This document shows, in pieces, positions 34,441-50,467 of a stretch of 64,000 bases of DNA (its first letter is position 1; every line of letters starts with the position of its first letter). Made by a program: the position numbers and the translations under genes. A model generated the notes under the pieces. It worked only from the letters and a program-made list of their open reading frames with translations, was not told where the DNA came from and searched no databases. The DNA comes from a virus, in the IMG/VR virus record IMGVR_UViG_3300026484_000065, positions 9,471-73,470 of that record; one strand, written 5' to 3'.

Positions 34441-35157
34441 ATGGGGTTAAAGATGCCACAGAAAGAAAGAAGCTATAGCAAAAGAGCTTTTGTCAAGAAT
34501 ATGCCTTATAAGAGTGGTACTCGCAAGAAGAAGAATGTATCACAGAAGGCATATGATAAAGTTATGGAGATGTTGCAAGATGGAGATATGGACTTCAGAA
34601 ATGACTTTATGACATTTAGCAAAGTATTCTCTGAGAAGAAGATATCTCTTCAACATTATGCAGAGGCTGTTAAGTTTGTTGGGTACAGATTGTTAGGGTA
34701 CAAGAATGTAGAAGCATTTAGAAGGGTTTTTCCAGAAAGAGCTGAAGCATTAGAAGAGGTTAGTTTCGAGAACTTATCTTTCGTTGCAACAAGATATGGG
34801 AACAATAAGACAGTTACTGAACTAATGTCAATGGCTATGGTGCCAACATGGATAGCAAATATGGATTATTATCAAGAGGCTATTAATGTTAATGTTATGC
34901 TTATGCGTAATGCTAAGAGTGAGATGGTTAAACATCAAGCAGCTAAGACACTAATGGAAGAATTAAGACCTCCTGAACCTGTTAAGGAGATACAGGAAGA
35001 TACAATCACAATAACAAAAGAGGATACACTTCAAGCCTTAGAAAATGCAATATTTAATCTTGCAGAAAAACAAGTTCAAGGTATAGAGGATGGGATTATT
35101 TCAACAGCTGATGCAATAGATGTTCAATTGGTTGGTACTAAAAATGAAGAAGATTAG
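34441..35157 (+). CDS. N4 gp69-like protein (candidate terminase small subunit)
   Basis: YAEAVKFVGYRLLG, VPTWIAN, YQEAINVNVMLMRNAKSEMVKHQAAKTLMEELRPPE; precedes TerL. Confidence 0.8.
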   Translation: MGLKMPQKERSYSKRAFVKNMPYKSGTRKKKNVSQKAYDKVMEMLQDGDMDFRNDFMTFSKVFSEKKISLQHYAEAVKFVGYRLLGYKNVEAFRRVFPERAEALEEVSFENLSFVATRYGNNKTVTELMSMAMVPTWIANMDYYQEAINVNVMLMRNAKSEMVKHQAAKTLMEELRPPEPVKEIQEDTITITKEDTLQALENAIFNLAEKQVQGIEDGIISTADAIDVQLVGTKNEED

Positions 35158-36712
35158 TGTAGATGAGCATTTAGACAACATAGATTATACATCGCAGTAT
35201 AGTCCAACAGTTAGTAGTGTTTATTTCACAAACTTCATAAAGCTTGTTGAAGATGGAGAGCCTGAAAATAAAACACCAGTTGTTCACCTGAGGATACTTG
35301 ATAGTATTTTTACTAGGCATCAAAGTACCGCAATCATGAGCCACAGGGGTATTGCAAAGTCAACATTGATGGAATATATATTGTGGCATTGTGCAGTGTT
35401 TGGATATATACCTGATGGTGTTGGAAAGTTTAAAGTTGATTTCGCTTTATATATTTCAGATGCAATAGACAATGGTGTTAAGACAATGAGGAAATCTATT
35501 GATAGTAGATTTGAGAGAAGCAACTTCTTAAGAAAGCATATCAAGGAAATTAAAACAACAGAGACAAGGCTAGAGTTCACAAGGATTAATGGTACAAAGT
35601 TTATAGTTAGAATGTATGGTGCTGCAACTGGTGTTCGTGGTGCCAGAGAACTAGGGCAAAGACCAACATTGGCAATACTGGATGACTTGGTGCAAAAGGA
35701 AGAACTAGCTAGAAGTAAGCCATTTATAGAAAGTATTAATTCAACAGTATATTCTGATGTTGAAGATGCAATGCACCCTACTAAAAGAAAGGTTATTTGG
35801 CTTGGTACTCCCTTTAATCAAGGGGATCCTTTATACGAGGCAATTGAGTCTGGCGCATGGAAAACAAGTGTGTACCCAATAGCAGAGAGATTCCCATGCA
35901 CAAGAGAAGAATTTAAAGGCTCTTGGGAAGAAAGATTTACGTATGATGCGGTAATGACAACATACAAGAAACGTCTTGCTGCTGGGCTTGTAGATAAGTT
36001 CTATAGGGAACTTATGCTTAAGGTAAGTTCAGAAGATGAACAGGTATTGGATGTTAATGATATTATAGAGGTAAGCGAACTAGATATTTCTAGTTGCAAT
36101 ATATATATAACAACAGATTTTGCAACAAGTGAAAAAGAGAAAGCGGATTATAGCGTTATAAGTGTTTGGGCGCTAACACAGGATAAAGAATATGTCTTGA
36201 TAGATGGTATATGCAAAAGACAATTGATGGATGCAAACGTAGAAGACCTTATGGAATTTATAGCTAGATACAGACCATTTGGAGTAAGTATAGAAAGAAG
36301 TGGTGCTCAAAAAGGGTTTATAGAATGGATAAAAGGAAAGATGATTGAGAGAGGATTATACACTCAAATATTAGGAAATATAGGTTCTAATCAAGAAGGC
36401 GTGTACCCAAGCAAGGATAAGTTAAGTAGGTTTATGGAGGTTGTTCCTTTGTTTAGATCTGGAAAAGTAAAGTATCTAAGTTCATTGGATAGCTCTTATA
36501 AATCTGAATTACTCAACGAGCTAAAGAACGTAACAATATCTGGAATAAAGTCAAAGCATGATGATGTTTTAGATACAATATCTATGCTAATTCTTTCAGA
36601 GTTGATTTTTCCAGATAGTGGTGGAAACTATTCGGAGGACCAAACAGTTCACAGGTATGATGAAATAGGTATAGAAAGCAACAATGAATTAATAAGTTTA
36701 TTTGAGGATTAA
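35144..36712 (+). CDS. terL: terminase large subunit (N4 gp68-like)
   Basis: ENKTPVVH, HRGIAKSTL, RPTLAILDD, WLGTPFN, TTDFATSEKEKADYS, SKHDDVLD. Confidence 0.95.
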   Translation: MKKISVDEHLDNIDYTSQYSPTVSSVYFTNFIKLVEDGEPENKTPVVHLRILDSIFTRHQSTAIMSHRGIAKSTLMEYILWHCAVFGYIPDGVGKFKVDFALYISDAIDNGVKTMRKSIDSRFERSNFLRKHIKEIKTTETRLEFTRINGTKFIVRMYGAATGVRGARELGQRPTLAILDDLVQKEELARSKPFIESINSTVYSDVEDAMHPTKRKVIWLGTPFNQGDPLYEAIESGAWKTSVYPIAERFPCTREEFKGSWEERFTYDAVMTTYKKRLAAGLVDKFYRELMLKVSSEDEQVLDVNDIIEVSELDISSCNIYITTDFATSEKEKADYSVISVWALTQDKEYVLIDGICKRQLMDANVEDLMEFIARYRPFGVSIERSGAQKGFIEWIKGKMIERGLYTQILGNIGSNQEGVYPSKDKLSRFMEVVPLFRSGKVKYLSSLDSSYKSELLNELKNVTISGIKSKHDDVLDTISMLILSELIFPDSGGNYSEDQTVHRYDEIGIESNNELISLFED

Positions 36713-36715
36713 AAA

Positions 36716-37393
36716 ATGGACATAACTAAATATAGAGTTTTTGTAAAAGATTATGGGTTGACTGATGATGAGTTTGAAACTATTGCTTCTGTTGTTCTAG
36801 GTGATATATTTGTTGGTACTGAGACAAACTATACAGGTATTAGTTCGACACTAAAGCATGATGAAAAAGAGATTGATTTGATGAAGAAAATAGATTCAAG
36901 TTCAGATACTGAATTAGTCTATAGTCTTGGAAAAAGTATTCCTGTTACAACAACTTCCACAACAGATATTCAGATTATCTCAATCATAGATGCAACTGTA
37001 ACTTATGAGAACAATAATGTTAAAGAAGAGATCTCTTTAATATATGATGGATTCTTAGTGAATGAAAGTGGAAATAAATATATTGTAAATACTGATGCAT
37101 TAAAATCTTTATTTGGTACTGAATACAATATAGATATAAAAATAATTGCCACAGTAAGTATTGCGCATGGCTTGATTGATGAAACGATGGAAGAGAAGAT
37201 AAGAAATGCTTTTATTGCTGGTATTCAATATTATGCTAGTACCACAATGCAATCAGCGCAAGATACGCAAACTGAACAGTTTAACTCACAAGTCTACTAC
37301 AGAGCAAAACAAGCTCTTATGTATAGATATGGAAATCAATATAGTGTTGTTGACCATAGAACAGTAGAAAACTCATGGAAACTTAGAGGATAA
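36716..37393 (+). CDS. virion structural protein (N4 gp67-like adaptor)
   Basis: Position after TerL and ~225-aa size as in N4-like phages. Confidence 0.55.
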   Translation: MDITKYRVFVKDYGLTDDEFETIASVVLGDIFVGTETNYTGISSTLKHDEKEIDLMKKIDSSSDTELVYSLGKSIPVTTTSTTDIQIISIIDATVTYENNNVKEEISLIYDGFLVNESGNKYIVNTDALKSLFGTEYNIDIKIIATVSIAHGLIDETMEEKIRNAFIAGIQYYASTTMQSAQDTQTEQFNSQVYYRAKQALMYRYGNQYSVVDHRTVENSWKLRG

Positions 37394-37396
37394 AGT

Positions 37397-39988
37397 ATGA
37401 GAGTTCATATTTTCAATAAATTCTCTGACAAGAGAAAAAAGATTTATGAGTGGGACAATAATGATTCGATATTCTATATTCATTATTTATTAGCTAAGTA
37501 TCTCATTGATGGTAGTGAATCATATGTATCGAAACTGTACAAGAAGATAGATTTAAGTGTTGGTACTCTTGATAATATGTATATTAAGAAGTTTATCAAC
37601 GCATTAACTATGTCTGATAGCTCACTTGAAGTTACAGCAACTAGCAAATGCTTATCACAGGAACAAGCTCTGGATACTAATGGTTTATATTCTTTACCTG
37701 AAACAACAGTTCAAAAAGGAACAAATACATTGACTCAATTATTTGGTGGTGTTAGTTTTAGAGGGTACTCAAATAATGGTGGAAGCAGATTGATACTTGG
37801 TACTAAAGATGATGATAAATTTGTTTACAGAGATATTGATTGTAGAAAGCAAGTTGATGTTGGATTTGATGTTGATATTTCAACTCTTCCTGCAGGTGTA
37901 GTATATGCTCTGTATTTGGTACCAATGAAGTTCTATGATGAAGACACTATAAAAGATACAATAAAAAATAATGCTGTAGGAGATATTGTCCTTGATGATG
38001 ATGGGCACTTCAATGGTCTTGAGGATGAATGGGGAATAGGTTATGGGGATGCACAGTATATCCAAGATATGGGAACTATAGAGATAGATATACTTGAATG
38101 CTCTACAACTGGTATGCAAGCTACTTTACATGGGTACATAAGAAATGATGGCGATGACATAATAGAAGATGATGATGGCGTACCGCAATTGGATAGAGCT
38201 GGTATATGGAAGTCTATTCACGGAATGTGCCAAACAGACCAAAATAGATTTGAAGACAATGCTGTTATTTATACTGATTCTTATGGTGACTATAATGCAA
38301 TGACTTTTGGTCCAGGAGAAAGCTTTAAAATAAATTCACTAAAGCCTTTTAGAGTTGAATGTTCGATTTATGGAGGCGAACACCCTCATCATGGAAAAGA
38401 TGATGTCATTAAGATGCAGGTATCAATAATGCAAGGTTCTGAATGTTTCATAATTGAGGTTGAATCAAAAGGATTTCCAGTTGATGCACTAGAAAAAATG
38501 CATCTTGTTAGTGCTATATGGGCTACTGAACATCAGGATTCGATAGGGCAAGATGAAATATTTAAGACATCATGGTGGCTTGATGGTTTTAGATGGGACA
38601 AGGAACCACCAAGAGATTTTAGAGGATGGTGTACCACAAATAGTTCTCATTCAAACATCAAGATAGTACCACATCTAACAAGTGAGGAGAGGTATAGATT
38701 TTATTCATATGCAAATAAATCAATGTTTTTAATAGAGCACAATGATACAAACAGCTATGATAGCTTATTGCCTGTGTATTCTCAGATGTCAAACCTTTCA
38801 ATAGTATGTGATACAGATAATGATGTTATAGATAACGATGATGTTTGGGTACTAGATTATATGTATAGAGGACTCTCTAGCCAGAGCAGTCTGAATAATT
38901 GGCATGGAACATATGGTTCAACATATGGCGTATTTTTTAATAATAAAGATTTAATTTCTGGTGGTAAGAATTATCTATCAAAATATATGGTTAATGTTGA
39001 TGCTGGTACAAGCAAAAAGGCTTATATTGATAAATTAAATACAAATTGGAACGTAGAAGATTCTTTCACTAAGTCACTAAGAAAAACATTGTCTACTGAT
39101 GGTGTAGCTCCAGCAAATGAAAACATTGAGACAACTTTCGATGAAGGAAGTTCTGATGCAAATGTAATAAAAACAACTTTTAAATCAATAGAAGTAAAAA
39201 CAATACGTGATGCAGATTTGTGTATAAACTATGACGATACAGTTCTCGATGTGAAAGTAGAGGATGAGGAGAACGGAAAAGATTTTTATGAGTGGTACTT
39301 TGATTTTGAAGATGAAACAAAAAGCTCAACTTCAATGCATCCATTATGGGATGAACCTTATAGTACCAAAATATGTACTTTTACAACACCAGAGTTTATT
39401 GATTCAAGTGAGCCAAATGCAAGAAAATGGTATATGAAGAAAAATGGAGATGATAACCATTACTCATTCAGTATAAACGATACAGATTATCTTGAAGATG
39501 TTGGTACTCTATCTTTTGAGATACTTTCAGTTGATATGTCTGCATCAACAATTGAGGAACGAGCTGAATCTGCTGAAAATAATTGGCTAAGCGGAAACGG
39601 ATATGGTGAATACAGTCTCAGAGTTGATAGTTATGGAAGAATTGTTATTAATTATCTTAAATGGAATGGTTCTAGCTTTTCTGGAACATCATGGCATAGC
39701 AGGGAATATACAATACTTGTAAACACAAAATATATAGTAACGTTTGTTTTTACGGACAATAAAGAAAAGTTGAATCTGTATTTAAATGGTGTACCTATCG
39801 TTGTATTGGACAGAGGAACTCCTGGAGCTATATTTAAAAATACATCTATGAAATTTGGTCCTGCTGCTGATAGTGGAAAAGTAAACATAACTGCCAGCAT
39901 AGATAAAATCTATATCTCAAACAAGATTCTTGATAAAAATGAAGTTTTTGAGCTGGCAAACAATAAATACAAAATCAAATCGTATTGA
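37397..39988 (+). CDS. tail-region glycoside hydrolase with a GH7-like catalytic domain and C-terminal LamG/ConA-like domain
   Basis: GSRLIL, FDVDISTLPAG..ALYLVPM, GIGYGDAQ, EIDILE, FGPG.SF.I...KPFRV, MHLVSAIW, WLD, RGWC; C-terminal LNLYLNG...IDKIYISNKILD. Confidence 0.8.
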   Translation: MRVHIFNKFSDKRKKIYEWDNNDSIFYIHYLLAKYLIDGSESYVSKLYKKIDLSVGTLDNMYIKKFINALTMSDSSLEVTATSKCLSQEQALDTNGLYSLPETTVQKGTNTLTQLFGGVSFRGYSNNGGSRLILGTKDDDKFVYRDIDCRKQVDVGFDVDISTLPAGVVYALYLVPMKFYDEDTIKDTIKNNAVGDIVLDDDGHFNGLEDEWGIGYGDAQYIQDMGTIEIDILECSTTGMQATLHGYIRNDGDDIIEDDDGVPQLDRAGIWKSIHGMCQTDQNRFEDNAVIYTDSYGDYNAMTFGPGESFKINSLKPFRVECSIYGGEHPHHGKDDVIKMQVSIMQGSECFIIEVESKGFPVDALEKMHLVSAIWATEHQDSIGQDEIFKTSWWLDGFRWDKEPPRDFRGWCTTNSSHSNIKIVPHLTSEERYRFYSYANKSMFLIEHNDTNSYDSLLPVYSQMSNLSIVCDTDNDVIDNDDVWVLDYMYRGLSSQSSLNNWHGTYGSTYGVFFNNKDLISGGKNYLSKYMVNVDAGTSKKAYIDKLNTNWNVEDSFTKSLRKTLSTDGVAPANENIETTFDEGSSDANVIKTTFKSIEVKTIRDADLCINYDDTVLDVKVEDEENGKDFYEWYFDFEDETKSSTSMHPLWDEPYSTKICTFTTPEFIDSSEPNARKWYMKKNGDDNHYSFSINDTDYLEDVGTLSFEILSVDMSASTIEERAESAENNWLSGNGYGEYSLRVDSYGRIVINYLKWNGSSFSGTSWHSREYTILVNTKYIVTFVFTDNKEKLNLYLNGVPIVVLDRGTPGAIFKNTSMKFGPAADSGKVNITASIDKIYISNKILDKNEVFELANNKYKIKSY

Positions 39989-40044
39989 TTTATGTATAAT
40001 TACAGAATTGCTGTATGCAATAAAACAAACACAAAGGAACACAT

Positions 40045-40287
40045 ATGAGAAGTGTTAAGTTAAAATACAAACAATGGGTACAGGTGAGTGATGATAAATG
40101 CTCGTACCAAAACAGAGCAAAGCATGAAGTTCTTATGAGCACAAGTGTTGATGAGCCAGTAAGCACAGAAGAAGCTTTTACTTTCAAGGCAGGAGAGTTT
40201 GGGTCTTTTGAGTCGTCAAATAGTTCAAAGCTATGGGCATATAGCGATGTGTTAAGCAATGGATATATTTCCGTAGAGGATGAATAA
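40045..40287 (+). CDS. hypothetical protein
   Basis: 80 aa, AAGGA RBS, upstream TATAAT box. Confidence 0.7.
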   Translation: MRSVKLKYKQWVQVSDDKCSYQNRAKHEVLMSTSVDEPVSTEEAFTFKAGEFGSFESSNSSKLWAYSDVLSNGYISVEDE

Positions 40288-43200
40288 ATGATTGCTAAAG
40301 GATTTGATAATAAAACAGGAATCACGCTAGGTAGCGGGTCTGATGTTTCTAAAGATAAAGCAATTTATGATGCTTCAGATTCAATAGATGGCATACTGGA
40401 TATTTCGTATAATGCTTATGGGTACACAAAAGAACTGAAGAAAAGTGAAAGGTTTGAGGAGACAAATACTCCTTATATTATTCAAGAAAAGGGTGGAGAC
40501 GCCATTAGATTTAGTAAAGGATTAGTAAAAAGAAATAATGCAGAAAACATTCATTTGCCCTTAGCTCCTTTTGCTGATGGTTCAACAGATGAGTTGCTGA
40601 GCCATAGTGACAATGGTTTTGAAACACAGGTGGACCACAAAGCTGGAGACATTATTCATTGTGGAGATGGTGCAGAGTTGGTTAGTAATGGTACGTTTGA
40701 CAGTGATGTAGATGGATGGGAGGCACATAATGCAGATATTAGCTCAGAAAGTGGAAAGCTAAAGGTTGATGACAGTGCAGATAGTGGAGGCAATAGTTGT
40801 GCTTCGCAAAGCTTAAGCCTAGTTGCTGGTGTTAAATATTTAATACGAGTAGATTTAATTGATGCTACTGATACTACATATGTTCAAATAGGCTCATCAT
40901 CATCAAAATATGAAACGTTAGAGAGAGTGCTTTCGCTTGGAGACAACTCGTTTGAGTTTACCGCAGATGATAAATCTACAAACATAAACTTAGTGGTTGC
41001 AAACGACAAGATAGCTTACTTTGACAACATCTCAGTAAAACCAGTTGAACAAACATATCAATCATTAGTACCAACAACTAGCGGAGATTTAGTCACAGAT
41101 GGTACAAGGTTCTCAAAGATTGATTTTGTTTCAAGACAAGATGTAATCTTCATTGGAGAAGATGGTAAATATAAAACAATCAAAGGTTATCATAACTTCC
41201 CAGCTGGCTTTAGTGCAGATGATGTAGCTAATGCTTATGGGTTTACTAAAAAAGGTAAAGGTTTATTTGAAGTAAATGATTTAGAATGTGTTGGAGATGA
41301 TGGAGTTGCAACTACTTATACTGGAGAGATTACAAGCATTAGTTTAGTTAGCAGATTGAATGCAGGTGCTTATCATCCTGCTCACAACGCATTTGGTACT
41401 TCAGCAACTTCCGAAACTGATGACCCTGGCAGTATTTCCGCAAGAAGCTGGTATTCTCGTGACGCCTACAACATTACAAGCACTTACGAAACATTTGAGA
41501 CCTGTGAGCTTGAAGATGATGTAGCAAAAGGCAGTAGAAATTACCGAAACTACATAAATGAGTCTGAAGATAACTCATATAGACCTGATAAGAAACATTG
41601 TGATAAAGTTTATTTTGAGGGACTTGGTGGATTAATTTTCAGAAATACGTTGGCTATTAAACCAAATAAAAAAGATTTATTGGAAGATGAAACTAACGAG
41701 CTAGTTGATGTTGATGAGATGAATGAAGAGTGTGGTGTTAGGTGTAAAATGATTAAAGGTAACTCGGCTTACCTGTGGGGTTCAAATAATGGAAAAACAA
41801 ATGAGGTTAGATTTACAGGATTAGTAGATACTTCTACAATAAGCATTGGAACTGGTTTGAGTGGATACTACTTAGTATCAGGCACAGTACACGCAGTTAG
41901 AGGAACTGTTACATCTATGCTAGATAATAGTTGGGTTACAATAACAGTAGATAGTGGTTTGACCAATGGAAATACTGGTGCATCAGATAGATATGGTGTT
42001 GATGCAGTGCTGACAACACCATTGAATCAGCTCCTTCAACAGGGCAAAGTATTAACTATTGATGTTGTAGGTAATCCAGCTAAATATTCTATTTCAGATA
42101 GCCCAGATGAATTACATTCAGACTCAACAGATAGTGGAGAGTTATTGAGACACGGTGCATTGTGTTGGAATGTAGACACAAATAAAATGTATATTTACCT
42201 AGATACAGATGACAGAGACAATGTGGATATGACAGCTGAAGACTTTAATGATGTAGCCAAATATAAGTATGTTATTGGACGCTATCCTGATAGTTGGCAC
42301 AATAGATTAGATAGTGGTCTGAGTTTGCCTTTTAATCCGTTACTAGTTGGGCAAGAGGGTAAGAATTACATACCTAGAGATATATCGAATCTCACAATAC
42401 TTAGTAAAAAATCAAAACAATACTATTTGCTTTCGTGGAATGTAAAGGATAGTGATAAAACATTTTTTAATCGAGGAATTTATCCCCCACACCTAGAATC
42501 TAGCAAGGTGAATCACGTTTTACAACGCGGCACTTTTAAAACAAATATGGTTAGTGCCATTTTTTATCATTCTCTACCAACTCCAACAACACAATCAGAC
42601 CCTAAACAGGTATTGATGGTAAGTGATAAAGTATTGGCATCGAATTCACTTTCTTGGTATCAAGGTGGGGGCATTGTTAATGCTGTAACTGGCAAGGTAA
42701 GTGTAGGAAACAACGAAATTACAGAAGTGAATAGTCTAAATGGTTCCGTATGCGCAGATGGCTCAATAAAAGGAAAACTAGGGCACTCAACAATAAACCT
42801 AGACAATAGCAACTCTCCAGCTGCTAAAGCATTTACAACTTTGTGTGTAGATGATAATGATGAGTTGCTTATAGGTCTTGTTGGTGAGGAGATAGTATGG
42901 GATTTTGAAGATGGTACACCGCATACATTTATTAGCTGGGACAAGGATGATGATGAAGAAATAACATTGGTTAAAAATAGCATATATGTGTTCATACCAG
43001 AAAATCCAAATGGTACAAATAAAAATAGGATTGATAATATATTCGCTAACAGAGTATATAGATATATTGGCGATGGGATGACAATAAACAGAAATGATGT
43101 TTATAGCTTAAAATTTAAGCTAGACAACGGTGGAGGTTCAAACTTTGGAAACATGATGATTCTTCCAGACGGAACACTTATGTACACTGGTGGAGCAAAA

Positions 43201-43344
43201 TGTATTAACTTTGAGCTGTGGGGCGGCAATGGCTTTGGAGATAATCGAAAATTCAATCAGTTGGCAAATGGAACTGTGACCGACCTAAATGGAAATGCAG
43301 TTAGAACATACAATGGTTTTAAAAGAACTGGTTACTATATTTAA
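40288..43344 (+). CDS. tail fiber / receptor-binding protein with a CBM-like domain
   Basis: 1018 aa, Gly/Asp/Ser-rich; ELVSNGTFDSDVDGW...YFDNISVK jelly-roll motif; followed by a chaperone-like gene. Confidence 0.75.
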   Translation: MIAKGFDNKTGITLGSGSDVSKDKAIYDASDSIDGILDISYNAYGYTKELKKSERFEETNTPYIIQEKGGDAIRFSKGLVKRNNAENIHLPLAPFADGSTDELLSHSDNGFETQVDHKAGDIIHCGDGAELVSNGTFDSDVDGWEAHNADISSESGKLKVDDSADSGGNSCASQSLSLVAGVKYLIRVDLIDATDTTYVQIGSSSSKYETLERVLSLGDNSFEFTADDKSTNINLVVANDKIAYFDNISVKPVEQTYQSLVPTTSGDLVTDGTRFSKIDFVSRQDVIFIGEDGKYKTIKGYHNFPAGFSADDVANAYGFTKKGKGLFEVNDLECVGDDGVATTYTGEITSISLVSRLNAGAYHPAHNAFGTSATSETDDPGSISARSWYSRDAYNITSTYETFETCELEDDVAKGSRNYRNYINESEDNSYRPDKKHCDKVYFEGLGGLIFRNTLAIKPNKKDLLEDETNELVDVDEMNEECGVRCKMIKGNSAYLWGSNNGKTNEVRFTGLVDTSTISIGTGLSGYYLVSGTVHAVRGTVTSMLDNSWVTITVDSGLTNGNTGASDRYGVDAVLTTPLNQLLQQGKVLTIDVVGNPAKYSISDSPDELHSDSTDSGELLRHGALCWNVDTNKMYIYLDTDDRDNVDMTAEDFNDVAKYKYVIGRYPDSWHNRLDSGLSLPFNPLLVGQEGKNYIPRDISNLTILSKKSKQYYLLSWNVKDSDKTFFNRGIYPPHLESSKVNHVLQRGTFKTNMVSAIFYHSLPTPTTQSDPKQVLMVSDKVLASNSLSWYQGGGIVNAVTGKVSVGNNEITEVNSLNGSVCADGSIKGKLGHSTINLDNSNSPAAKAFTTLCVDDNDELLIGLVGEEIVWDFEDGTPHTFISWDKDDDEEITLVKNSIYVFIPENPNGTNKNRIDNIFANRVYRYIGDGMTINRNDVYSLKFKLDNGGGSNFGNMMILPDGTLMYTGGAKCINFELWGGNGFGDNRKFNQLANGTVTDLNGNAVRTYNGFKRTGYYI

Positions 43345-45142: not shown

Positions 45143-46069
45143 ATGTTTGGATTAAGTATTTTAGAGACCGTAGTAGATGGAGTAAAAGACCACTTTAAAG
45201 GCAAGCAAGAATTGAAGAAGCTAGAGGCAGAAGCCAAAAAGAAAATCTTAGAAGTTGAAACACAAGCTAAGGTTGCAACACAACAAGCTAAGATTGACAT
45301 GTTGAGAGCTTCACAAGACAATGATTTTAAGCTAGATATGATAGCTATGCAGTCTATGAACAAGTCTTGGAAAGATGAATTTATACTAGCAGTATTCACA
45401 GCGCCATTAGTTTTAGCATTTGTACCATCAGCACAAGGCTATATAATGGGAGGGTTTCAACTAATGGAGTTTATACCCGAATGGTGGATTTATCTAGTTA
45501 TAGGCATGGTTGTGAGTATTATGGGACTTAGAGGACTACTTCACGAGTTTATGAAGAATAAGCCTAAACTTAGTTTTGGTGGCAAATCAGTACCAAAAAA
45601 AGAAGTGTTTCATTCTCCAGCTAATCCAAAGGAATTAGTTAGCAACTACAAGTCTAAGTACTTTAAGATTGAAGAGTTGGTACCAAAAGAGTTATATGAG
45701 AAACACAGTGAAAATGAATTATGGAGCATGTTAGATGATAGGTTGTTAAAAGATTTAGACAAGCTAAAAGAAGTATTTGACAAAGGAACAATGACTATTA
45801 ATAATTGGAAATGGGGCGGTAATCGTAACTGGTCTGGGATAAGAACAGAAGGCAGTCCTTACTATAGTTCAGGAAGTATGCACTCATTTGGCAAAGCCTT
45901 TGATATCATATTTAGTGATTATGGGGCAGAGGAAGTTAGAAAGCACATAAAGGAACATAAAGAAGAATTTCCGGCTATTAAAGGTTTGGAACACAAAAAG
46001 AATGGCGAGCCGATTAGTTGGGTACACTTAGATACTAAAGACAGAGGACATCTGTTTTTTAATGTTTAA
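45143..46069 (+). CDS. holin-like domain fused to an M15-type peptidase endolysin
   Basis: SWKDEFILAVFTAPLVLAFVP...WWIYLVIG holin pattern; YFKIEELV, SGIR, SMHSFGKAFD, WVHLD zinc-peptidase motifs. Confidence 0.85.
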   Translation: MFGLSILETVVDGVKDHFKGKQELKKLEAEAKKKILEVETQAKVATQQAKIDMLRASQDNDFKLDMIAMQSMNKSWKDEFILAVFTAPLVLAFVPSAQGYIMGGFQLMEFIPEWWIYLVIGMVVSIMGLRGLLHEFMKNKPKLSFGGKSVPKKEVFHSPANPKELVSNYKSKYFKIEELVPKELYEKHSENELWSMLDDRLLKDLDKLKEVFDKGTMTINNWKWGGNRNWSGIRTEGSPYYSSGSMHSFGKAFDIIFSDYGAEEVRKHIKEHKEEFPAIKGLEHKKNGEPISWVHLDTKDRGHLFFNV

Positions 46070-46692: not shown

Positions 46693-48555
46693 ATGAATAT
46701 CAGTGGAGGATGGAAGGCTTTCAATAAGAAGTTTGGATTGTTTCAAAATAAAAAGAAAACAATCCTTGCTTCTTCTTTTGTACCACTCTTTGATGAGTCA
46801 GCGACAGCAGGCAAGATGCTGTCAAATAAGATTATTGAAGGTGATGATAGCACGAAAGTGCTAGTTGGTACTTTTATGCAGGAGGCGTCAAACAATAATC
46901 CAAAAAGGATTGACTCTTTGAAACCTATATACACTTGGGACAATGCCACTAGTCAAGCAAACAAAGGGTTTTACACGTTAAGAAAAGATAATCAATACTT
47001 GGATGTGTTTGAGAAAATGTACTATAGAGCATATGTCAAGAAGGCTACAAATGTCTATAGAGATATAGAAGATACAGAAGAGGTTGAAGAGCATCAACTT
47101 AGAGTAAAATTTATTCTTTCTATGCTTGAATCAAATAACTCAAACGAGCAGAGTGTAAAGATAAAATCATCGCTAAAAGAATACAATTACAATGTGTACC
47201 AATACAAATGTAAATGTGATGATGATACATTTTATAGTCCAATACTAGATGGTGATTATATAAAGACAAGAAATGGTGACTATTATGCATCAATAGAGAT
47301 AGCATTTGATATTGATGGCAATGAAGAATATATCCTATTTAAAGATGGTGATTGCTTTTTTGATATTGGTACTATCCCAACTAAATTTTCAAATTACCAT
47401 GTAGAATTCGACGGATTGGTACATGAATATAGTATTAGTACTGCTGCACATAGAGATCTTGCTTCTAACTACTTCATCCAGCCAACAAGTCTTTTTCTTC
47501 CAGTAAAAGTTGAATCAACTGATTTTATTATAAAACCTGGTACGCAATATTCAGCGTATTTAAAATCGCTTGGTATAGATATCAACAACATGGCTGGTAT
47601 CCTTGAAGATGACAAAATTAAATATGCATTTATTACATATGCAGCGAAGAAAGATGATCCGTTAATTGAAAAGACTCTTGGTGCAACATATGATAATTTA
47701 ATTGGGTACACAGAACTATTCAATCTTGTTGGCAAGCCAGAAAATTTTGAAAGCTACTTTGCTGCAAGGTTTTATGTTGACGATGGTGATGTTAAGTGTA
47801 AAGTTCACAACTTGTTTTTGCCAGGTTCTGGTCCTGCGGAGGTTATTGTCGATAGAGTACCAATTCCAGTACCAACATATAACTCTGGGTTTTACAAAAT
47901 ATCATCATCTGTATATGGCAATGAAAATACAGTACCAAACAATACATTTTCGTTAACAGATTTTAGACTTAAGAATTTATGTTTGTATGTAGTTACAGAA
48001 GAGGAAGTTGATATATCTTTTATGGCAACAGCTGATGGTAGAGCGTTCCAGTTTGCACTTTCAAGCGTTGGTACTATTGCCGCATTAGCATCTGGAAATC
48101 CATATTTAGCGGCAATGGCCCTAACAGGAATGATGGCCAACCAATACAGAACTGAGATGCATAGTAATGATTACAGTAATTTACAGATAGGGCTAACTAT
48201 AGCCTCGCTTGGTGCAGGTGGATACTCTATATATAAGCAAGGCTTTAATATGTCATCAGCCATACATGCGGGAAACATGGCGGTAGATGTGTACAGTATT
48301 TATACAGAACAAATGTTTAACGATAAGTTTAAAAAACAGCTAACTGAAAAAAAAGAAATAGAAAAGGAAGACAGAGACCTTCAAAGAGAACTCGATGAAC
48401 TGCTAAATCCTTTTATGTTAAGCCCATTTAAAAAAATAGATACTTATTTCGACACTGTATTTGAGCTGCCTTCCATTACGACATCTATTCCTGATATAAT
48501 GTTGCAATTACCTAAAGCGGAGATAAATGATGAGCAAGTTAAAAAACTCTATTGA
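46693..48555 (+). CDS. virion structural/tail protein (possibly N4 gp53-like)
   Basis: 620 aa, follows the gp54-like gene, C-terminal hydrophobic Gly/Ala helices. Confidence 0.5.
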   Translation: MNISGGWKAFNKKFGLFQNKKKTILASSFVPLFDESATAGKMLSNKIIEGDDSTKVLVGTFMQEASNNNPKRIDSLKPIYTWDNATSQANKGFYTLRKDNQYLDVFEKMYYRAYVKKATNVYRDIEDTEEVEEHQLRVKFILSMLESNNSNEQSVKIKSSLKEYNYNVYQYKCKCDDDTFYSPILDGDYIKTRNGDYYASIEIAFDIDGNEEYILFKDGDCFFDIGTIPTKFSNYHVEFDGLVHEYSISTAAHRDLASNYFIQPTSLFLPVKVESTDFIIKPGTQYSAYLKSLGIDINNMAGILEDDKIKYAFITYAAKKDDPLIEKTLGATYDNLIGYTELFNLVGKPENFESYFAARFYVDDGDVKCKVHNLFLPGSGPAEVIVDRVPIPVPTYNSGFYKISSSVYGNENTVPNNTFSLTDFRLKNLCLYVVTEEEVDISFMATADGRAFQFALSSVGTIAALASGNPYLAAMALTGMMANQYRTEMHSNDYSNLQIGLTIASLGAGGYSIYKQGFNMSSAIHAGNMAVDVYSIYTEQMFNDKFKKQLTEKKEIEKEDRDLQRELDELLNPFMLSPFKKIDTYFDTVFELPSITTSIPDIMLQLPKAEINDEQVKKLY

Positions 48556-50467
48556 AAATATGAGTCACGAAGAACAACTAAAAATAGTTGACACTCTCTC
48601 TAAGGATTTGAGAGATTGTCTTCCAGTAAAAACTGAGATTGATAAATATGTGTCAGATATGAGAGACATTTATGAAGGAAGATTAGATACCAAAACAGGT
48701 GTATCTAACTATATAAGCAGAGATGTGTTTAAGCAGATTGAATGGGCAAAAGCTCAATATAAAAATCCTTTTATTTCTAATGATACAATCGTTAGATTGC
48801 AGCCAAATGCTATGTCAAAAAGAGACCAAACTGTTCAAACAGAAAAGTTAGTTAACCACTTCTATATTAAAAAGTTTGATAGATATAACTTTATGACAGA
48901 CTATCTTGACGCTCTACTCATTGATGGTACTACAGTGATAAGAACTGGTTGGGATTACGAGAGCGAAACAAAGATTGTTCAAGAGGAAGTTAAAGACCCA
49001 TTGACAAATCAAGTGATAGATATAGCCGAAACAGAAGTTGAAGTACCAATAGTGAATGTACCAACATCAGAACTATATAAAATAGAAAACTGTTTTATAG
49101 ATCCAACAGCAACAAAAAATAGTGAGATAACTTTTATTGGTACTAAGAAAGAAGTATCAATTAATGAATTGGAAAAAGATGGAATCTATTTCAACCTAGA
49201 TAAAATAAACAAAGACCATAACGATTTGATATCTCAGACAGCAACAACATCTGTGTTTGATTTGGAATTCAATAGAGATAATCTAATTTCAAACTTTGAA
49301 GATGACAAACGTAAAAAGTTATCTATGTATGAATATTGGGGTACTGTTGAACTAGATGGTGAGCTTCATAATATTGTTGCTTGCTTTATTGGTACTACAT
49401 TAATAAGGCTAGATGAAAATCCATATCCAGATGGAAAGATACCTTTTATAATCAATCAATGCTACAGACAGCCGCACACGTTATATGGTAAAAGTATGGT
49501 AGATATGCTTAGTGATTATCAATATGTGAAGACTGCCCTGTATAGGGGAATCTTTGACAATATCGCTTTATCCAATAGCACACAAATAGGAATCCCAAAA
49601 GGCATGCTATCTCCTAAAGAAGAAGAGAGATATATTGATGGAAAAGTGTTTCATTTTAATGGAAGCAACTTTACTCCATACAAAGGGCAATACAACAGAA
49701 TTCCAAACGAAGTATTTGGAATGCTTGATAAGATAGATACTGAATCAAACTTAACTTCAGGTGTGGTACCAGCTCAAGGAGGGCAAGGCTCACAAGGAAT
49801 CTATGGTTCTCAAGCAGGAAAAGCTGGACAGCTAAATTCCTTAGCATTAAGAGAATTAGACATGGTCATTAATATATCCGACAATCTAATCAAGCCAATG
49901 TTCAGAAAATGGATTGGGTACATGTATGAGTATATGGACAGAAACCAAATAGAGGATATTACAGGTGTTGATTATGTTGATGTTGAGAAAGATTATTCTG
50001 AGCACAGAAACGACTTCATGATTGATATTAGTACCCAACATACAGATGAAGTTAAAGCGAGCGAATTGTCATTCCTTCTTCAAACACTTGGACAATCAAT
50101 GCCTGAAGAACTAACTAGATTGATTATGAGTGAAATAGTTAGACTTAAAAAGATGCCTGATTTTGCTGAGACTATTAAGCAGTATCAACCAGAGCCTGAT
50201 CCTTTTGAGCAGCAAATGAAACAACTTGAACTTCAAAAGCTTCAAGCTGAAATACAAGCAATAGGTTCTTCTATTCAGTCTGGACAAGCAGATGCTAATC
50301 TTAAAGCAGCTAAAGCTAGAGAGGCAGAAGCAAAAGCAATTGATACAAATATATCTGCGGTTAGAAAGAAATATGGTATTGATGCAAAAGAACAAAGAGA
50401 GGTTATAACAGCTAAAGCAAATGCTGATAGAGATAACCTAATCACTAAAGCTGCCTATTCAGGTTAG
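48527..50467 (+). CDS. portal protein (N4 gp59-like)
   Basis: KQIEW, DGTTVIRTGW, YEYWG, IRLDENPYPDGKIPF, ELSFLLQTLG, YQPEPDP. Confidence 0.93.
   Translation: MMSKLKNSIENMSHEEQLKIVDTLSKDLRDCLPVKTEIDKYVSDMRDIYEGRLDTKTGVSNYISRDVFKQIEWAKAQYKNPFISNDTIVRLQPNAMSKRDQTVQTEKLVNHFYIKKFDRYNFMTDYLDALLIDGTTVIRTGWDYESETKIVQEEVKDPLTNQVIDIAETEVEVPIVNVPTSELYKIENCFIDPTATKNSEITFIGTKKEVSINELEKDGIYFNLDKINKDHNDLISQTATTSVFDLEFNRDNLISNFEDDKRKKLSMYEYWGTVELDGELHNIVACFIGTTLIRLDENPYPDGKIPFIINQCYRQPHTLYGKSMVDMLSDYQYVKTALYRGIFDNIALSNSTQIGIPKGMLSPKEEERYIDGKVFHFNGSNFTPYKGQYNRIPNEVFGMLDKIDTESNLTSGVVPAQGGQGSQGIYGSQAGKAGQLNSLALRELDMVINISDNLIKPMFRKWIGYMYEYMDRNQIEDITGVDYVDVEKDYSEHRNDFMIDISTQHTDEVKASELSFLLQTLGQSMPEELTRLIMSEIVRLKKMPDFAETIKQYQPEPDPFEQQMKQLELQKLQAEIQAIGSSIQSGQADANLKAAKAREAEAKAIDTNISAVRKKYGIDAKEQREVITAKANADRDNLITKAAYSG

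What the first reader, a model, noticed from the sequence alone, without database searches (positions are those of the whole stretch)
37640..38810. GH7-like (eukaryote-type cellulase fold) domain in a phage tail-region protein
Seen: the 863-aa ORF carries these motifs in order: GGSRLIL / FDVDISTLPAGVVYALYLVPM / WGIGYGDAQY / EIDILECS...ATLH / FGPGESFKINSLKPFRV / ALEKMHLVSAIW / WWLDG / RGWC / MSNLSI. Established: fungal GH7 enzymes (e.g. Trichoderma Cel7A/Cel7B) read approximately GSRLYL / FDVDVSxLPCGLNGALYFVSM / YGTGYCDSQC / EMDIWEAN...TPH / YGPGSSFTLDTTK / GMVLVMSLW / MLWLDS / RGSC / FSNIK, and GH7 is considered essentially eukaryotic. The catalytic ExDxxE is intact (38081-38098). Several disulfide cysteines are replaced (LPAG, YGDAQY), which fits cytoplasmic folding. 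Inference: a virion-borne beta-glucan/cellulose depolymerase with a LamG binding module, either acquired from a eukaryote or an unrecognised prokaryotic-viral GH7 branch bridging GH16 and GH7.
Basis: partly seen in the sequence, partly recalled or inferred. Interest (0 to 1): 0.92.

Follow-up and report, generated by a model that had tools for sequence, protein, structure and literature searches.

The report
Divergent GH7-type glycanase in a phage
An uncultured N4-like bacteriophage carries, in its late structural gene block, a large protein whose core is a real but very distant relative of the GH7 cellulases, a family described as absent from bacteria; its sugar target and place in the virion are untested.

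Summary
ORF 37397-39988 (863 aa) carries all ten quoted motifs in order, including E229-x-D231-x-x-E234 and H245.

The GH7 reading holds too. Pfam GH7 is the only relevant hit but is below threshold (20.7 bits against a cut-off of 27). A profile of the 21 best relatives matches 39 PDB sequences, all GH7, best E 8.8e-11. An AlphaFold model (pLDDT 84.9) gives Z 22-23 to three GH7 structures and at most 11.8 to GH16.

The C-terminus is a borderline Laminin_G_3 domain.

The gene lies between the terminase and portal genes of an N4-like phage, where N4 has its appendage gene gp66. There is no sequence similarity to gp66.

The protein belongs to an unannotated family of about 40 metagenomic proteins. 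Two members could be placed: one on a contig labelled a giant-virus MAG, one on a 393-kb viral contig. None was found in catalogued phages, in 23 related phage loci or in the bacterial genomes searched.

Virion association and substrate are inferred. "Bridging GH16 and GH7" is not supported.

This scan has already noted GH7-like lipoproteins in other phages; this architecture differs.

The parts
37385..37390 (+). Shine-Dalgarno-like AGAGGA, 6 nt before the ATG at 37397
   Evidence: Read directly. The upstream ORF stops at 37393.
37397..39988 (+). 863-aa ORF: the multidomain GH7-like protein (end includes the TGA stop)
   Evidence: The identical protein P0001 is on record from two assemblies, contigs of 73,621 and 73,470 bp.
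37397..37708 (+). N-terminal region, aa 1-104. No known family and not shared with relatives. Candidate virion-attachment part (inference only).
   Evidence: Pfam gives only chance-level hits at E<=10. It lies outside the family module, which starts at aa 105. Model residues before about aa 110 have pLDDT below 50.
37709..38806 (+). GH7-type catalytic beta-sandwich, aa about 105-470
   Evidence: PF00840 E 1.9e-4. Profile against the PDB matches GH7 only, best E 8.8e-11. AF2 model pLDDT 84.9, pTM 0.87. Z 22.8 to 8pof_A. Foldseek ranks 1-49 are GH7.
38081..38098 (+). Catalytic motif E229-I-D231-I-L-E234
   Evidence: aligned to the E-x-D-x-x-E of 8pof. Family conservation: E229 in 38 of 42, D231 in 37 of 42, E234 in 39 of 42.
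38129..38131 (+). H245, 11 residues after E234; aligns with the His of GH7 'T-P-H'
   Evidence: H in 40 of 42 family rows.
38807..39157 (+). Family-specific C-terminal extension of the module, aa about 471-587 (VWVLDYMYRG...NWHGTYGSTYGV); not part of canonical GH7
   Evidence: The local HMM of alignment A2 matches P0001 over aa 105-587. Conserved in A3.
39158..39574 (+). aa 588-726: linker or domain of unknown fold, absent from the relatives
   Evidence: No family at E<=10 apart from chance-level hits. The single-sequence model failed, pLDDT 32.
39575..39946 (+). Laminin_G_3 (concanavalin-like lectin) domain, aa 727-850; borderline
   Evidence: PF13385 E 3e-6, 27.9 bits against a cut-off of 27.6 on fragment aa 690-863, and 27.0 bits on aa 588-863. 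Atlas features score 0.94, with 20 of 30 hits in Laminin_G_3 clusters.
35120..36712 (+). Context: large terminase subunit (N4 gp68 type)
   Evidence: phrog_38 E 1.1e-68. 488 phage records match, and the 25 listed are N4-like phages of several hosts, at most 49% identical.
36716..37393 (+). Context: 225-aa ORF at the position of N4 gp67, with no detectable homology to it
40288..43344 (+). Context: 1018-aa ORF at the position of N4 gp65 (sheath and receptor-binding protein), with no similarity to it
   Evidence: phrog_14489, unknown function, E 2.8e-17..
48527..50467 (+). Context: portal protein, closing the variable block between terminase and portal
   Evidence: phrog_1216 E 9.4e-130. Homologues in 8 of 23 related loci.

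Best explanation
The 863-aa product of 37397-39988 is a late-expressed, multidomain glycanase of an uncultured N4-like podophage. Its core (aa about 105-470) is a highly diverged homologue of glycoside hydrolase family 7. It has the same beta-jelly-roll sandwich, the same Glu-x-Asp-x-x-Glu plus His catalytic constellation, and the same conserved Arg, Tyr, Asp, Gln, Trp and Arg positions around it. The compact form resembles the small GH7 endoglucanase RsSymEG1. This much is shown. By analogy with GH7 it should cleave a beta-linked, gluco-configured polysaccharide by a retaining double-displacement mechanism, with E229 as nucleophile and E234 as acid/base, probably in an open cleft and therefore endo-acting. 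This is inferred. The C-terminal Laminin_G_3-type lectin domain would hold the enzyme on the glycan (inferred). The gene sits in the hypervariable cassette between terminase and portal, where N4 encodes its tail appendage and receptor-binding proteins. The most likely role is therefore a virion-borne depolymerase that clears a host capsule, exopolysaccharide or LPS glycan so the phage can reach the outer membrane. This is inferred from position only. The domain belongs to an unannotated family of about 40 metagenomic proteins without signal peptides. The two members that could be placed lie on large eukaryote-virus-like contigs. My odds are about 0.95 for GH7 homology, about 0.8 for catalytic competence, and about 0.5-0.6 for a virion-borne depolymerase.
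For: Homology. PF00840 is the only relevant Pfam hit (E 1.9e-4 on the protein, 4e-5 on the domain). phmmer against the PDB returns two sequences at E<=10, both GH7. A profile of 21 sequences, of which the 11 scanned individually (the domain and P0002-P0011) all fall below Pfam's GH7 cut-off, matches 39 PDB sequences at E<=10. All 39 are GH7, with best E 8.8e-11 covering residues 81-416 of a 434-residue chain. The 42-row profile reaches 5.9e-19.

Fold. The AF2 model has pLDDT 84.9 and pTM 0.87. Foldseek ranks 1-49 are all GH7, with E from 9.6e-12 to 1.2e-8; the next hit is a lectin at 7e-5. VIA-align against 48,161 chains gives 8pof_A Z 22.8 (rmsd 3.2, 248 aligned, 25% identity), 2rfw_A Z 22.1 and 6su8_A Z 21.9, while the best GH16 is Z 11.8.

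Active site. E229, D231, E234 and H245 are present and are conserved in 38, 37, 39 and 40 of 42 rows. R131 (38 of 42), Y173 (39), Y216 (40), D218 (41), Q220 (37), W394 (37) and R409 (33) are also conserved, and they align with the GSR, ALY, GYxDxQ, WLD and RG motifs of GH7 chains.

Compact form. There are 8 residues between GYGDAQ and EIDILE, the same as in 8pof. The cellobiohydrolase aligned has 36.

Context. The terminase matches N4-like phages at no more than 49% identity. The gene order 238 aa, TerL, 225 aa, 863 aa, 1018 aa ... portal ... major capsid protein mirrors N4 gp69, gp68, gp67, gp66 (appendage), gp65 (sheath and receptor-binding protein) ... gp59 ... gp56. In 23 terminase-related viral loci, gp69-like, TerL and portal are found in 12, 23 and 8 loci, but none of the five cassette genes tested has a BLASTP match.

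LamG..

Genuineness. G+C of the 2-kb windows over the gene is 0.317-0.337, against 0.28-0.37 across the window. There is an RBS and tight gene packing. One 49,937-bp contig of run X1 covers 35500-40467 with 0 differences, and small contigs of a second study (X2) lie inside the gene with 0-11 differences.
Against: The protein itself does not reach Pfam's GH7 gathering score (20.7 bits for the whole protein and 23.0 for the domain, against 27). On that criterion it is GH7-like and not a curated member.

There is no sequence or profile similarity to N4 gp65, gp66 or gp67. The virion claim rests on gene order alone, and N4 also has lysis genes in the terminase-portal interval.

The fold is a globular jelly roll, not the trimeric beta-helix usual for tailspike depolymerases.

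The substrate is unknown. The only host lead, two Thiomicrorhabdus MAGs, is weak, and those genomes gave no BcsB (cellulose synthase subunit) match.

Three of 42 family rows have Q at the nucleophile position, so some relatives may be non-catalytic binders.

Model residues 201-220 have pLDDT 52-59, so the shape of the cleft is not settled.

The genomic context of the nearest relatives (P0002-P0004) could not be fetched.
Confidence: 0.6

Rival explanations
1. The same GH7-type enzyme, but not part of the virion. It would be a soluble late protein released at lysis that degrades biofilm matrix or exopolysaccharide around the burst cell, or removes receptors, so that progeny are not trapped.
For: There is no similarity to any N4 tail protein. 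In N4 the terminase-portal interval also holds lysis genes, and in the window an endolysin-type gene lies in the same block at 45143-46069. GH7 enzymes are monomeric soluble enzymes (recalled).
Against: There is no signal peptide or lipobox at the N-terminus (sequence, by eye), so export would depend on lysis. The gene is flanked by large ORFs at the gp67 and gp65 positions. Its 863-aa multidomain build, with a private 104-aa N-terminus and a lectin-type C-terminus, resembles adsorption proteins more than lysis enzymes (inference).
Confidence: 0.22
2. A receptor-binding protein in which the GH7-type sandwich has become a non-catalytic carbohydrate-binding domain.
For: Concanavalin-like sandwiches often serve as lectins. 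Lectins follow GH7 in the Foldseek list (rank 50) and appear in the VIA list at Z about 10. Three of 42 family rows carry Q at the nucleophile position and three carry N at the Asp position.
Against: This protein keeps E229, D231, E234 and H245, together with the surrounding R, Y, D, Q, W and R positions, all of which are conserved in about 80-98% of rows. That pattern is expected of an enzyme under selection.
Confidence: 0.1
3. An ordinary bacterial or phage GH16-type glucanase (laminarinase or lichenase) mistaken for GH7.
For: GH16 shares the clan GH-B jelly roll and an ExDxxE-like motif (recalled). GH16 structures are found at Z 10-11.8. The best BFVD viral matches are weak and include some GH16-named proteins, with best E 1.2e-5 and TM about 0.25.
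Against: PF00722 is not reported at E<=1 and is not among the 10 families matched by any of the 42 members. All 39 PDB sequences hit by each profile are GH7. The GH7 Z-scores are about twice the GH16 Z-scores and come with 22-25% identity against 6-18%.
Confidence: 0.02
4. An artefact: a eukaryotic GH7 fragment joined to a phage contig by misassembly.
For: None beyond the family's eukaryotic reputation.
Against: One 49,937-bp contig of X1, at even depth 12.4, spans the terminase gene through the whole ORF into the next gene with 0 differences; X1 may be the source sample, so this is a second assembly and not second data. A second study, X2, holds pieces of the gene. Two assemblies give the identical protein. 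G+C, the RBS and gene packing are phage-like. The protein is only 25% identical to its nearest solved GH7. There is no signal peptide and there are few cysteines.
Confidence: 0.01

Closest known systems
RsSymEG1 (PDB 8POF), the 321-aa 'smaller GH7 endoglucanase' of a termite-gut protist symbiont (entry title as listed)
   Same: Best structural match: Z 22.8, rmsd 3.2 A, 248 residues aligned, 25% identity, covering chain residues 12-321. It has the same E-x-D-x-x-E...H motif and the same 8-residue spacing between GYxDAQ and the catalytic motif. The A2 profile hits it at E 8.9e-10.
   Different: It is a single-domain protein of a eukaryote (entry title); that it is secreted is recalled, not tested. 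It keeps cysteines where the phage protein has Ala or Gly. The phage protein adds a 104-aa N-terminus, a roughly 117-aa family-specific extension, a roughly 139-aa unknown region and a LamG-type domain. The phage protein is below Pfam's GH7 cut-off.
Fungal GH7 cellobiohydrolases and endoglucanases (Cel7A and Cel7B; e.g. PDB 5oa5, 2rfw, 6su8, 1cel)
   Same: Same fold, with Z 22.1 and 21.9 and Foldseek E about 1e-11. The profile alignment spans residues 81-416 of the 434-residue chain 5oa5_A, through GSR, ALY, GYxDxQ, ExDxxE, TxH, YGPG, SxW, WLD and RG.
   Different: The phage protein lacks the long insert between GYxDxQ and ExDxxE (36 residues in the chain, 8 here), which in cellobiohydrolases contributes to the tunnel roof (recalled). 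It also lacks a signal peptide, has few cysteines, and shows only 14-18% identity in Foldseek alignments.
GH16 laminarinases, lichenases, agarases and carrageenases (the other family of clan GH-B)
   Same: Concanavalin-like jelly roll, with Z up to 11.8. The shared catalytic Glu-Asp-Glu logic is recalled.
   Different: The Z-scores are half those of GH7, with 6-18% identity. There is no Pfam or PDB sequence hit.
Tail appendage and receptor-binding genes of N4-like phages (N4 gp66 'appendage' and gp65 'tail sheath and receptor binding protein'). The enzymatic tailspikes of the N4-like phage G7C are recalled and were not looked up.
   Same: Same place in the genome: after gp69-like, the terminase and a roughly 230-aa gene, and before the portal. 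The cassette is variable between relatives.
   Different: BLASTP finds no similarity (best E 0.46), and a gp67 profile does not match the 225-aa neighbour. No GH7-type domain occurs in 23 terminase-related loci or in 50,697 phage records by tblastn.
GH7-like lipoproteins of uncultured aquatic phages noted earlier in this scan (unpublished AI notes, e.g. e1-5410599, e1-6077469)
   Same: These are phage-encoded distant GH7 relatives, with 8POF named as the closest structure.
   Different: Those are described as small lipid-anchored proteins, several lying inside ribonucleotide-reductase operons. This protein has no lipobox, is 863 aa long, lies in the structural block and carries a LamG-type domain. 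Sequence look-up in the scan found no look-alike window. I did not test whether the two families are directly related.

Membership tests
GH7 (Pfam PF00840, Glyco_hydro_7) | Score at or above the curated Pfam gathering threshold (27 bits) | tested here: not met
   20.7 bits for the whole protein and 23.0 bits for the domain alone. Of the ten nearest relatives, three have sub-threshold hits and none passes. Five more distant family members do pass, at 36-44 bits (P0023, P0029, P0030, P0032, P0042).
GH7 | Profile-level sequence homology to solved GH7 catalytic domains across most of their length | tested here: met
   The A2 profile matches 39 of 39 sequences as GH7, best E 8.8e-11 over chain residues 81-416 of 434. 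The A1 profile reaches 5.9e-19.
GH7 | GH7 beta-sandwich fold, closer to GH7 than to other concanavalin-like folds | tested here: met
   Z 22.8, 22.1 and 21.9 for GH7 against at most 11.8 for all others. Foldseek ranks 1-49 are GH7. This rests on a predicted model with pLDDT 84.9.
GH7 | Catalytic E-x-D-x-x-E with a His 11 residues after the second Glu | tested here: met
   E229, D231, E234 and H245 are present, align with the motif in 8pof and are conserved in the family. Their roles as nucleophile and acid/base are recalled from Cel7A.
GH7 | Hydrolysis of beta-1,4-glucan with retention of configuration | not testable with these tools
   This needs an enzyme assay.
GH7 | Secreted, disulfide-rich eukaryotic protein (typical of the family, not defining) | tested here: not met
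   The N-terminus is polar with no signal peptide (by eye). There are 6 Cys in aa 105-470. LPCG is replaced by LPAG and GYCD by GYGD.
GH16 (Pfam PF00722) | Sequence profile match | tested here: not met
   It is not reported at E<=1 for the protein, and it is not among the families matched by any of the 42 members at E<=0.01.
GH16 | Closest structural neighbours are GH16 | tested here: not met
   The best GH16 Z is 11.8, about half the GH7 values.
Laminin_G_3 (Pfam PF13385), C-terminal domain | Score at or above the gathering threshold (27.6 bits) | tested here: inconclusive
   27.9 bits on fragment aa 690-863, but 27.0 on aa 588-863, and no hit reported for the whole protein at E<=1. Atlas features agree, at 0.94 with 20 of 30 hits. 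The single-sequence model was unusable, pLDDT 32.
Phage tail appendage or tailspike depolymerase | Encoded in the tail or adsorption gene cassette | tested here: inconclusive
   It is at the position of N4 gp66 by gene order and inside a cassette with no homologues in 23 relatives. There is no homology to any known tail protein.
Phage tail appendage or tailspike depolymerase | Physical presence in the virion | not testable with these tools
   The phage is uncultured. This needs virion proteomics or cryo-EM.
N4-like phages (Schitoviridae type), for the genome | N4-type terminase and gene order | tested here: met
   The terminase matches 488 phage records, and the 25 listed are N4-like phages of several hosts at 44-49% identity. 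The order matches N4 gp69, gp68 ... gp59 ... gp56. The ORF of more than 2679 aa at 55964-64000 was not tested as a virion RNA polymerase.

The most novel reading that the evidence does not exclude
GH7-type glycanases are not a eukaryote-only invention. They would have a deep, so far unannotated viral lineage that has crossed between large DNA viruses of eukaryotes (a contig labelled a giant-virus MAG, and a 393-kb viral contig with a PIF gene) and tailed bacteriophages. On this reading the N4-like phage mounts the enzyme on its tail, with a lectin domain, to cut a cellulose-like beta-glucan coat of a hydrothermal-vent bacterium. Such a viral reservoir could also help to explain the patchy distribution of GH7 among fungi, amoebae, oomycetes, termite protists and crustaceans.
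Probability: 0.25. Interest if true: 0.85.

Novelty: new variant of a known kind. Interest (0 to 1): 0.7.

Why it matters
[quoted passage not shown] This finding would matter in three ways.

- **Family range.** A catalytically intact GH7-type domain in a bacteriophage, within a family whose other placeable members sit on large eukaryote-virus-like contigs, extends the family's known range. It also raises virus-mediated transfer as a way to explain the family's patchy distribution.
- **Phage biology.** It would add a new fold to the repertoire of phage polysaccharide depolymerases. It also points to a beta-glucan-type surface polymer on an unknown vent bacterium.
- **Enzymology.** A cytoplasmically folded, cysteine-poor, compact GH7 could be expressed in bacteria, which has been difficult for fungal GH7 (recalled).

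Tried and rejected
- **Word-indexed protein searches** with the whole protein, its C-terminal 344 aa and the 42-row alignment found only the protein itself, plus P0038 and P0050. This reflects the limit of the word index and is not evidence of absence; the exhaustive HMMER search found 42.
- **P0038** was dropped as a false hit. It matched through five short stretches, carries unrelated Pfam families, and is not matched by the A2 HMM.
- **tblastn against 50,697 phage records** with the window protein, P0003 and P0032 gave no match.
- **Locus scans.** Alignment A2 was too diverse to search with. A3 found one contig in viral contigs (L001) and the same contig again in metagenome contigs (L002), and nothing in genome contigs. 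P0046, P0002, P0048, P0017 and P0055 found nothing in viral contigs. P0030 found L006.
- **Bacterial genomes.** 401 genomes of one phylum were searched with A2 and none matched. This means 'not found in those searched', not 'absent'.
- **Hallmark-gene searches** of the records behind L001 and L006 were not possible because the records are not held. That these are eukaryotic viruses therefore rests on the contig label, the absence of PHROG hits other than a glycosyltransferase, and a PIF domain.
- **C-terminal model.** The single-sequence AlphaFold model of aa 521-863 was unusable, pLDDT 32. phmmer of aa 588-863 against the PDB gave nothing.
- **BFVD viral structure library.** There was no close match; the best was E 1.2e-5 with TM about 0.25.
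- **N4 tail proteins.** BLASTP against gp66, gp67 and gp65 gave nothing. A gp67 profile from 20 sequences did not match the 225-aa neighbour.
- **Host lead.** The N-terminal part of the 308-aa lysis-block protein is 39% identical to proteins of two Thiomicrorhabdus MAGs. Neither genome gave a BcsB match. This is too weak to name a host or a substrate.
- **Sequencing runs.** No RNA holder is listed. Run X2 covers only parts of the stretch, and uncovered parts mean nothing.
- **Promoter and terminator scan.** There were fewer promoter-like sites than in shuffles, so it was uninformative.
- **Literature.** Searches found no paper describing a GH7 in a phage or giant virus. 'GH7' with 'giant virus' as whole words gave 0 papers. 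'GH7' with 'phage' gave 29 papers; I saw 25 titles, none on the topic, and checked passages of two, both irrelevant. The paper behind 8POF is not in the library; I saw only its PDB title. Supplements were not consulted.

Full report
**What is there.** The window has one open frame at 37397-39988 on the + strand, encoding 863 aa. The ATG is preceded by AGAGGA at a 6-nt spacing, and the upstream gene stops 3 nt before it. EIDILE lies at aa 229-234 (nt 38081-38098) and the following His at aa 245.

**Is it GH7, GH16 or chance?** With the single protein, Pfam reports PF00840 (GH7) at E 1.9e-4. That is 20.7 bits, below the curated cut-off of 27, and no GH16 family appears at E<=1. phmmer against all PDB sequences returns two sequences at E<=10, both GH7: 2xsp_A (E 0.0021) and 8pof_A (E 0.0064). 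These alignments place LPAG opposite LPCG and GYGDAQ...EIDILE...H opposite GYCDAQ...ELDIWE...H.

An exhaustive HMMER search of 1.84 billion representatives with aa 75-490 found 42 proteins at E<=0.001 (21 at E<=1e-10), including the query itself. A profile of the best 21 matches 39 PDB sequences at E<=10, and every one is GH7. The best hit has E 8.8e-11 and is aligned over residues 81-416 of a 434-residue chain. Of those 21 rows, the 11 scanned one by one (the domain and P0002-P0011) all fall below Pfam's GH7 cut-off; the other ten were not scanned individually. The 42-row profile reaches 5.9e-19. When all 42 members were scanned individually, 16 hit PF00840 at E<=0.01 and none hit GH16.

An AlphaFold2 model of aa 75-490 built on the 42-row alignment has mean pLDDT 84.9 and pTM 0.87. 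Foldseek against the PDB lists GH7 entries at ranks 1-49, with E from 9.6e-12 to 1.2e-8, and then a legume lectin at 7e-5. VIA-align against 48,161 representative chains gives the following:
- 8pof_A: Z 22.8, rmsd 3.2 A, 248 residues aligned, 25% identity
- 2rfw_A: Z 22.1
- 6su8_A: Z 21.9
- the best GH16 enzymes: Z 11.8 or lower

**Active site and form.** The catalytic and nearby positions are conserved across the 42 aligned rows:

| Residue | Rows with that residue (of 42) |
|---|---|
| E229 | 38 |
| D231 | 37 |
| E234 | 39 |
| H245 | 40 |
| R131 | 38 |
| Y173 | 39 |
| Y216 | 40 |
| D218 | 41 |
| Q220 | 37 |
| W394 | 37 |
| R409 | 33 |

These columns align with the GSR, ALY, GYxDxQ, ExDxxE, TxH, WLD and RG motifs of solved GH7 chains. 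The assignment of E229 as nucleophile and E234 as acid/base is by analogy with Cel7A, recalled from memory. Only 8 residues separate GYGDAQ from EIDILE, as in the small endoglucanase 8pof. The cellobiohydrolase aligned has 36 residues there. In cellobiohydrolases that segment helps to roof the tunnel (recalled), so an open cleft and endo action are inferred. The three best Z-scores are tied and cannot separate endo from exo types. Part of the model (residues 201-220) has pLDDT 52-59.

**Domain plan.** A local HMM of the 21-row alignment matches the window protein over aa 105-587. The family module is therefore the GH7-type sandwich (to about aa 470) plus a conserved extension of about 117 aa (VWVLDYMYRG...NWxGxYxxxYGV) that canonical GH7 lacks. 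Most relatives consist of this module with a variable N-terminus.

The window protein alone adds about 275 C-terminal residues. Scanned as a fragment, aa 727-850 match Laminin_G_3 (PF13385) at E 3e-6. The score is 27.9 bits against a cut-off of 27.6, and 27.0 bits on a longer fragment. The protein-language-model search puts the region with Laminin_G_3 clusters (score 0.94, 20 of 30 hits). A single-sequence model of this part failed with pLDDT 32. The LamG reading is therefore supported but borderline. The first 104 residues match nothing.

**Genomic setting.** The record is a 73,470-base virus record estimated 95% complete. Gene strand and GC skew switch at about 34 kb. The + strand block begins as follows:
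- a gp69-like gene (phrog_2109)
- the large terminase (phrog_38, E 1.1e-68)
- a 225-aa gene
- the 863-aa gene
- a 1018-aa gene (phrog_14489, unknown function)
- an endolysin-type gene
- the portal (phrog_1216)
- the major head protein (phrog_1357)
- an ORF of more than 2679 aa

The terminase matches 488 phage records. The 25 listed are N4-like phages of Acinetobacter, Vibrio, Erwinia, Pseudomonas, Klebsiella and Shigella, and none is more than 49% identical. In phage N4 the annotated order is gp69, gp68, gp67 (virion structural protein), gp66 (appendage), gp65 (tail sheath and receptor binding protein), gp64, lysis genes, and portal gp59. The 863-aa gene therefore sits where N4 has its appendage gene.

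This is positional only. BLASTP of the three window proteins against gp66, gp67 and gp65 finds nothing. A profile of 20 gp67-type sequences does not match the 225-aa gene.

Among 23 viral contigs fetched through the terminase, gp69-like, terminase and portal homologues occur in 12, 23 and 8 loci. N4 gp67 homologues occur in 19. None of the five window genes tested between terminase and portal has any match, and no locus has a GH7-like ORF. The gene thus lies in a lineage-specific, fast-changing cassette, which is the pattern expected of adsorption genes (inference).

**Is it real DNA of this phage?** The G+C of the two 2-kb windows over the gene (0.317-0.337) matches the rest of the window. 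The identical protein is on record from two assemblies. In run X1, labelled a hydrothermal vent metagenome and possibly the source sample, one 49,937-bp contig at even depth covers 35500-40467 with no difference. In run X2, from another study, contigs of 151-271 bp lie inside the gene with 0-11 differences. A chimera is very unlikely.

**The family and where it lives.** After dropping P0038, 41 proteins including the query form the family. None that I inspected starts with a signal peptide (by eye). Where a source gives a name, it is 'hypothetical protein'.

A maximum-likelihood tree of 39 rows puts the window protein in a 4-row clade with P0002, P0003 and P0004 (SH-aLRT 99). Six fragments, near-duplicates, P0038 and P0050 were left out. 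The sister clade (support 94) contains P0005 and the group of P0010, P0016 and P0036. On the other side of the midpoint lies a group in which five members pass Pfam's GH7 cut-off at 36-44 bits.

Only two members could be placed on DNA:
- A 748-aa protein, 63% identical to P0010, lies on a 33,978-bp contig named as a giant-virus MAG. It has 24-31% G+C, a GT2/GT25 neighbour, and a PHROG match (a glucosyltransferase family) for only one of ten ORFs.
- P0030 lies on a 393,203-bp viral contig beside an SNF2-type helicase, a thioredoxin, a NADAR protein and a PIF (per os infectivity) domain protein.

Other members come from contigs of 107, 213 and 368 kb.

The family was not found in the following searches:
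- 50,697 phage records, by tblastn with three members
- the BFVD viral structure library, beyond weak generic matches
- 185,579 species genomes scanned with patterns from the six closest members
- 401 bacterial genomes searched with the profile

**Mechanism proposed.** GH7 homology and an intact active site are shown. The following steps are inferred. The module hydrolyses a beta-linked gluco-type polysaccharide with retention. The LamG-type domain binds the polymer. The protein is carried on the tail and clears a capsule, exopolysaccharide or LPS glycan during adsorption. I put this at about 0.5-0.6.

The main rival, at about 0.2, is the same enzyme acting as a soluble late protein released at lysis. 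A non-catalytic binder is less likely, at about 0.1, because the catalytic set is intact here, although three of the 42 rows carry Gln at the nucleophile position. GH16 and assembly artefact are effectively excluded.

No substrate can be named. The only host lead is 39% identity between part of a lysis-block protein and proteins of two Thiomicrorhabdus MAGs. It is weak, and those genomes gave no BcsB match.

**Comparison with what is known.** The domain works like a GH7 and is homologous to GH7. By Pfam's curated threshold, however, this protein is not a member (20.7-23.0 bits against 27). It is best called a divergent GH7-type lineage within clan GH-B; whether CAZy would file it as GH7 or as a new family is open. 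It does not bridge GH7 and GH16.

[quoted passage not shown] My searches found no paper on a GH7 in a phage or giant virus. The library does not cover subscription journals, and the paper behind 8POF was not available.

Within this scan, earlier notes report GH7-like lipoproteins in phages of at least 20 other genomes, also with 8POF as the closest structure. The present protein differs in architecture and location, and it shares no detectable word-level similarity with any noted window. I did not test how the two families relate.

**Verdict.** This is a real, well-supported and unusual feature: a catalytically intact, cysteine-poor, compact GH7-type glycanase fused to a lectin-type domain in the variable adsorption cassette of a deep-branching N4-like phage. 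It belongs to an unannotated, apparently virus-borne family. I rate it a new variant of a known kind, interest 0.7. Function in the virion and the substrate remain to be tested.

Noticed in passing
window 39986-40063: A JGI/IMG gene call of the same gene (P0043, 888 aa) reads the TGA stop as Trp and runs 25 residues further. Under table 11 the window's ORFs are long and tightly packed, so recoding seems unnecessary, but I did not examine TGA usage in this phage.
   Followed up: partly
window 40324-41328 (N-terminal third of the 1018-aa ORF) and 36907-37308: In run X1 these stretches have 2-4 times the depth of the main contig (24-47 against 12.4). Several short variant contigs are present, and one contig skips 401 nt (40672 to 41074) with 35 other letters in between. 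This suggests that co-occurring related phages share, or vary in, these segments of the adsorption cassette.
   Followed up: no
window 40288-43344: The 1018-aa neighbour has no Pfam family at E<=1 and matches only phrog_14489, of unknown function. By eye its aa about 130-250 look like a CenC/CBM4_9-type sugar-binding module (NGxFxxxxxGW); this was not tested. It could be the partner receptor-binding protein.
   Followed up: no
window 45143-46069: The 308-aa ORF combines phrog_2524 (unknown function, aa 5-140) with an endolysin family (aa 169-301). Its N-terminal part is 39% identical to proteins of two Thiomicrorhabdus MAGs. This is the only host lead, and it is weak.
   Followed up: partly
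window 35120-36712 and loci L007-L029: The terminase is at most 49% identical to any catalogued or IMG/VR relative found. Even the gp67-type gene present in 19 of 23 relatives is undetectable here. This is a deep-branching N4-like lineage.
   Followed up: partly
L006 20607-21353 and 10001-11356: A 393-kb viral contig carries a PIF (per os infectivity factor, PF05092, E 4e-13) domain gene about 9 kb from a GH7-like gene that passes Pfam's GH7 cut-off (P0030, 39.6 bits) and has no signal peptide. The kind of virus was not established.
   Followed up: partly
alignment A1, columns of aa 229, 231 and 234: A few family members carry Q at the nucleophile position (3 of 42), N at the Asp position (3 of 42), or D or Q at the acid/base position (3 of 42). 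These are possible non-catalytic, lectin-like derivatives.
   Followed up: no
window 55964-64000: An ORF of more than 2679 aa runs off the window end, at the position where N4-like phages encode the virion RNA polymerase. Not tested here.
   Followed up: no
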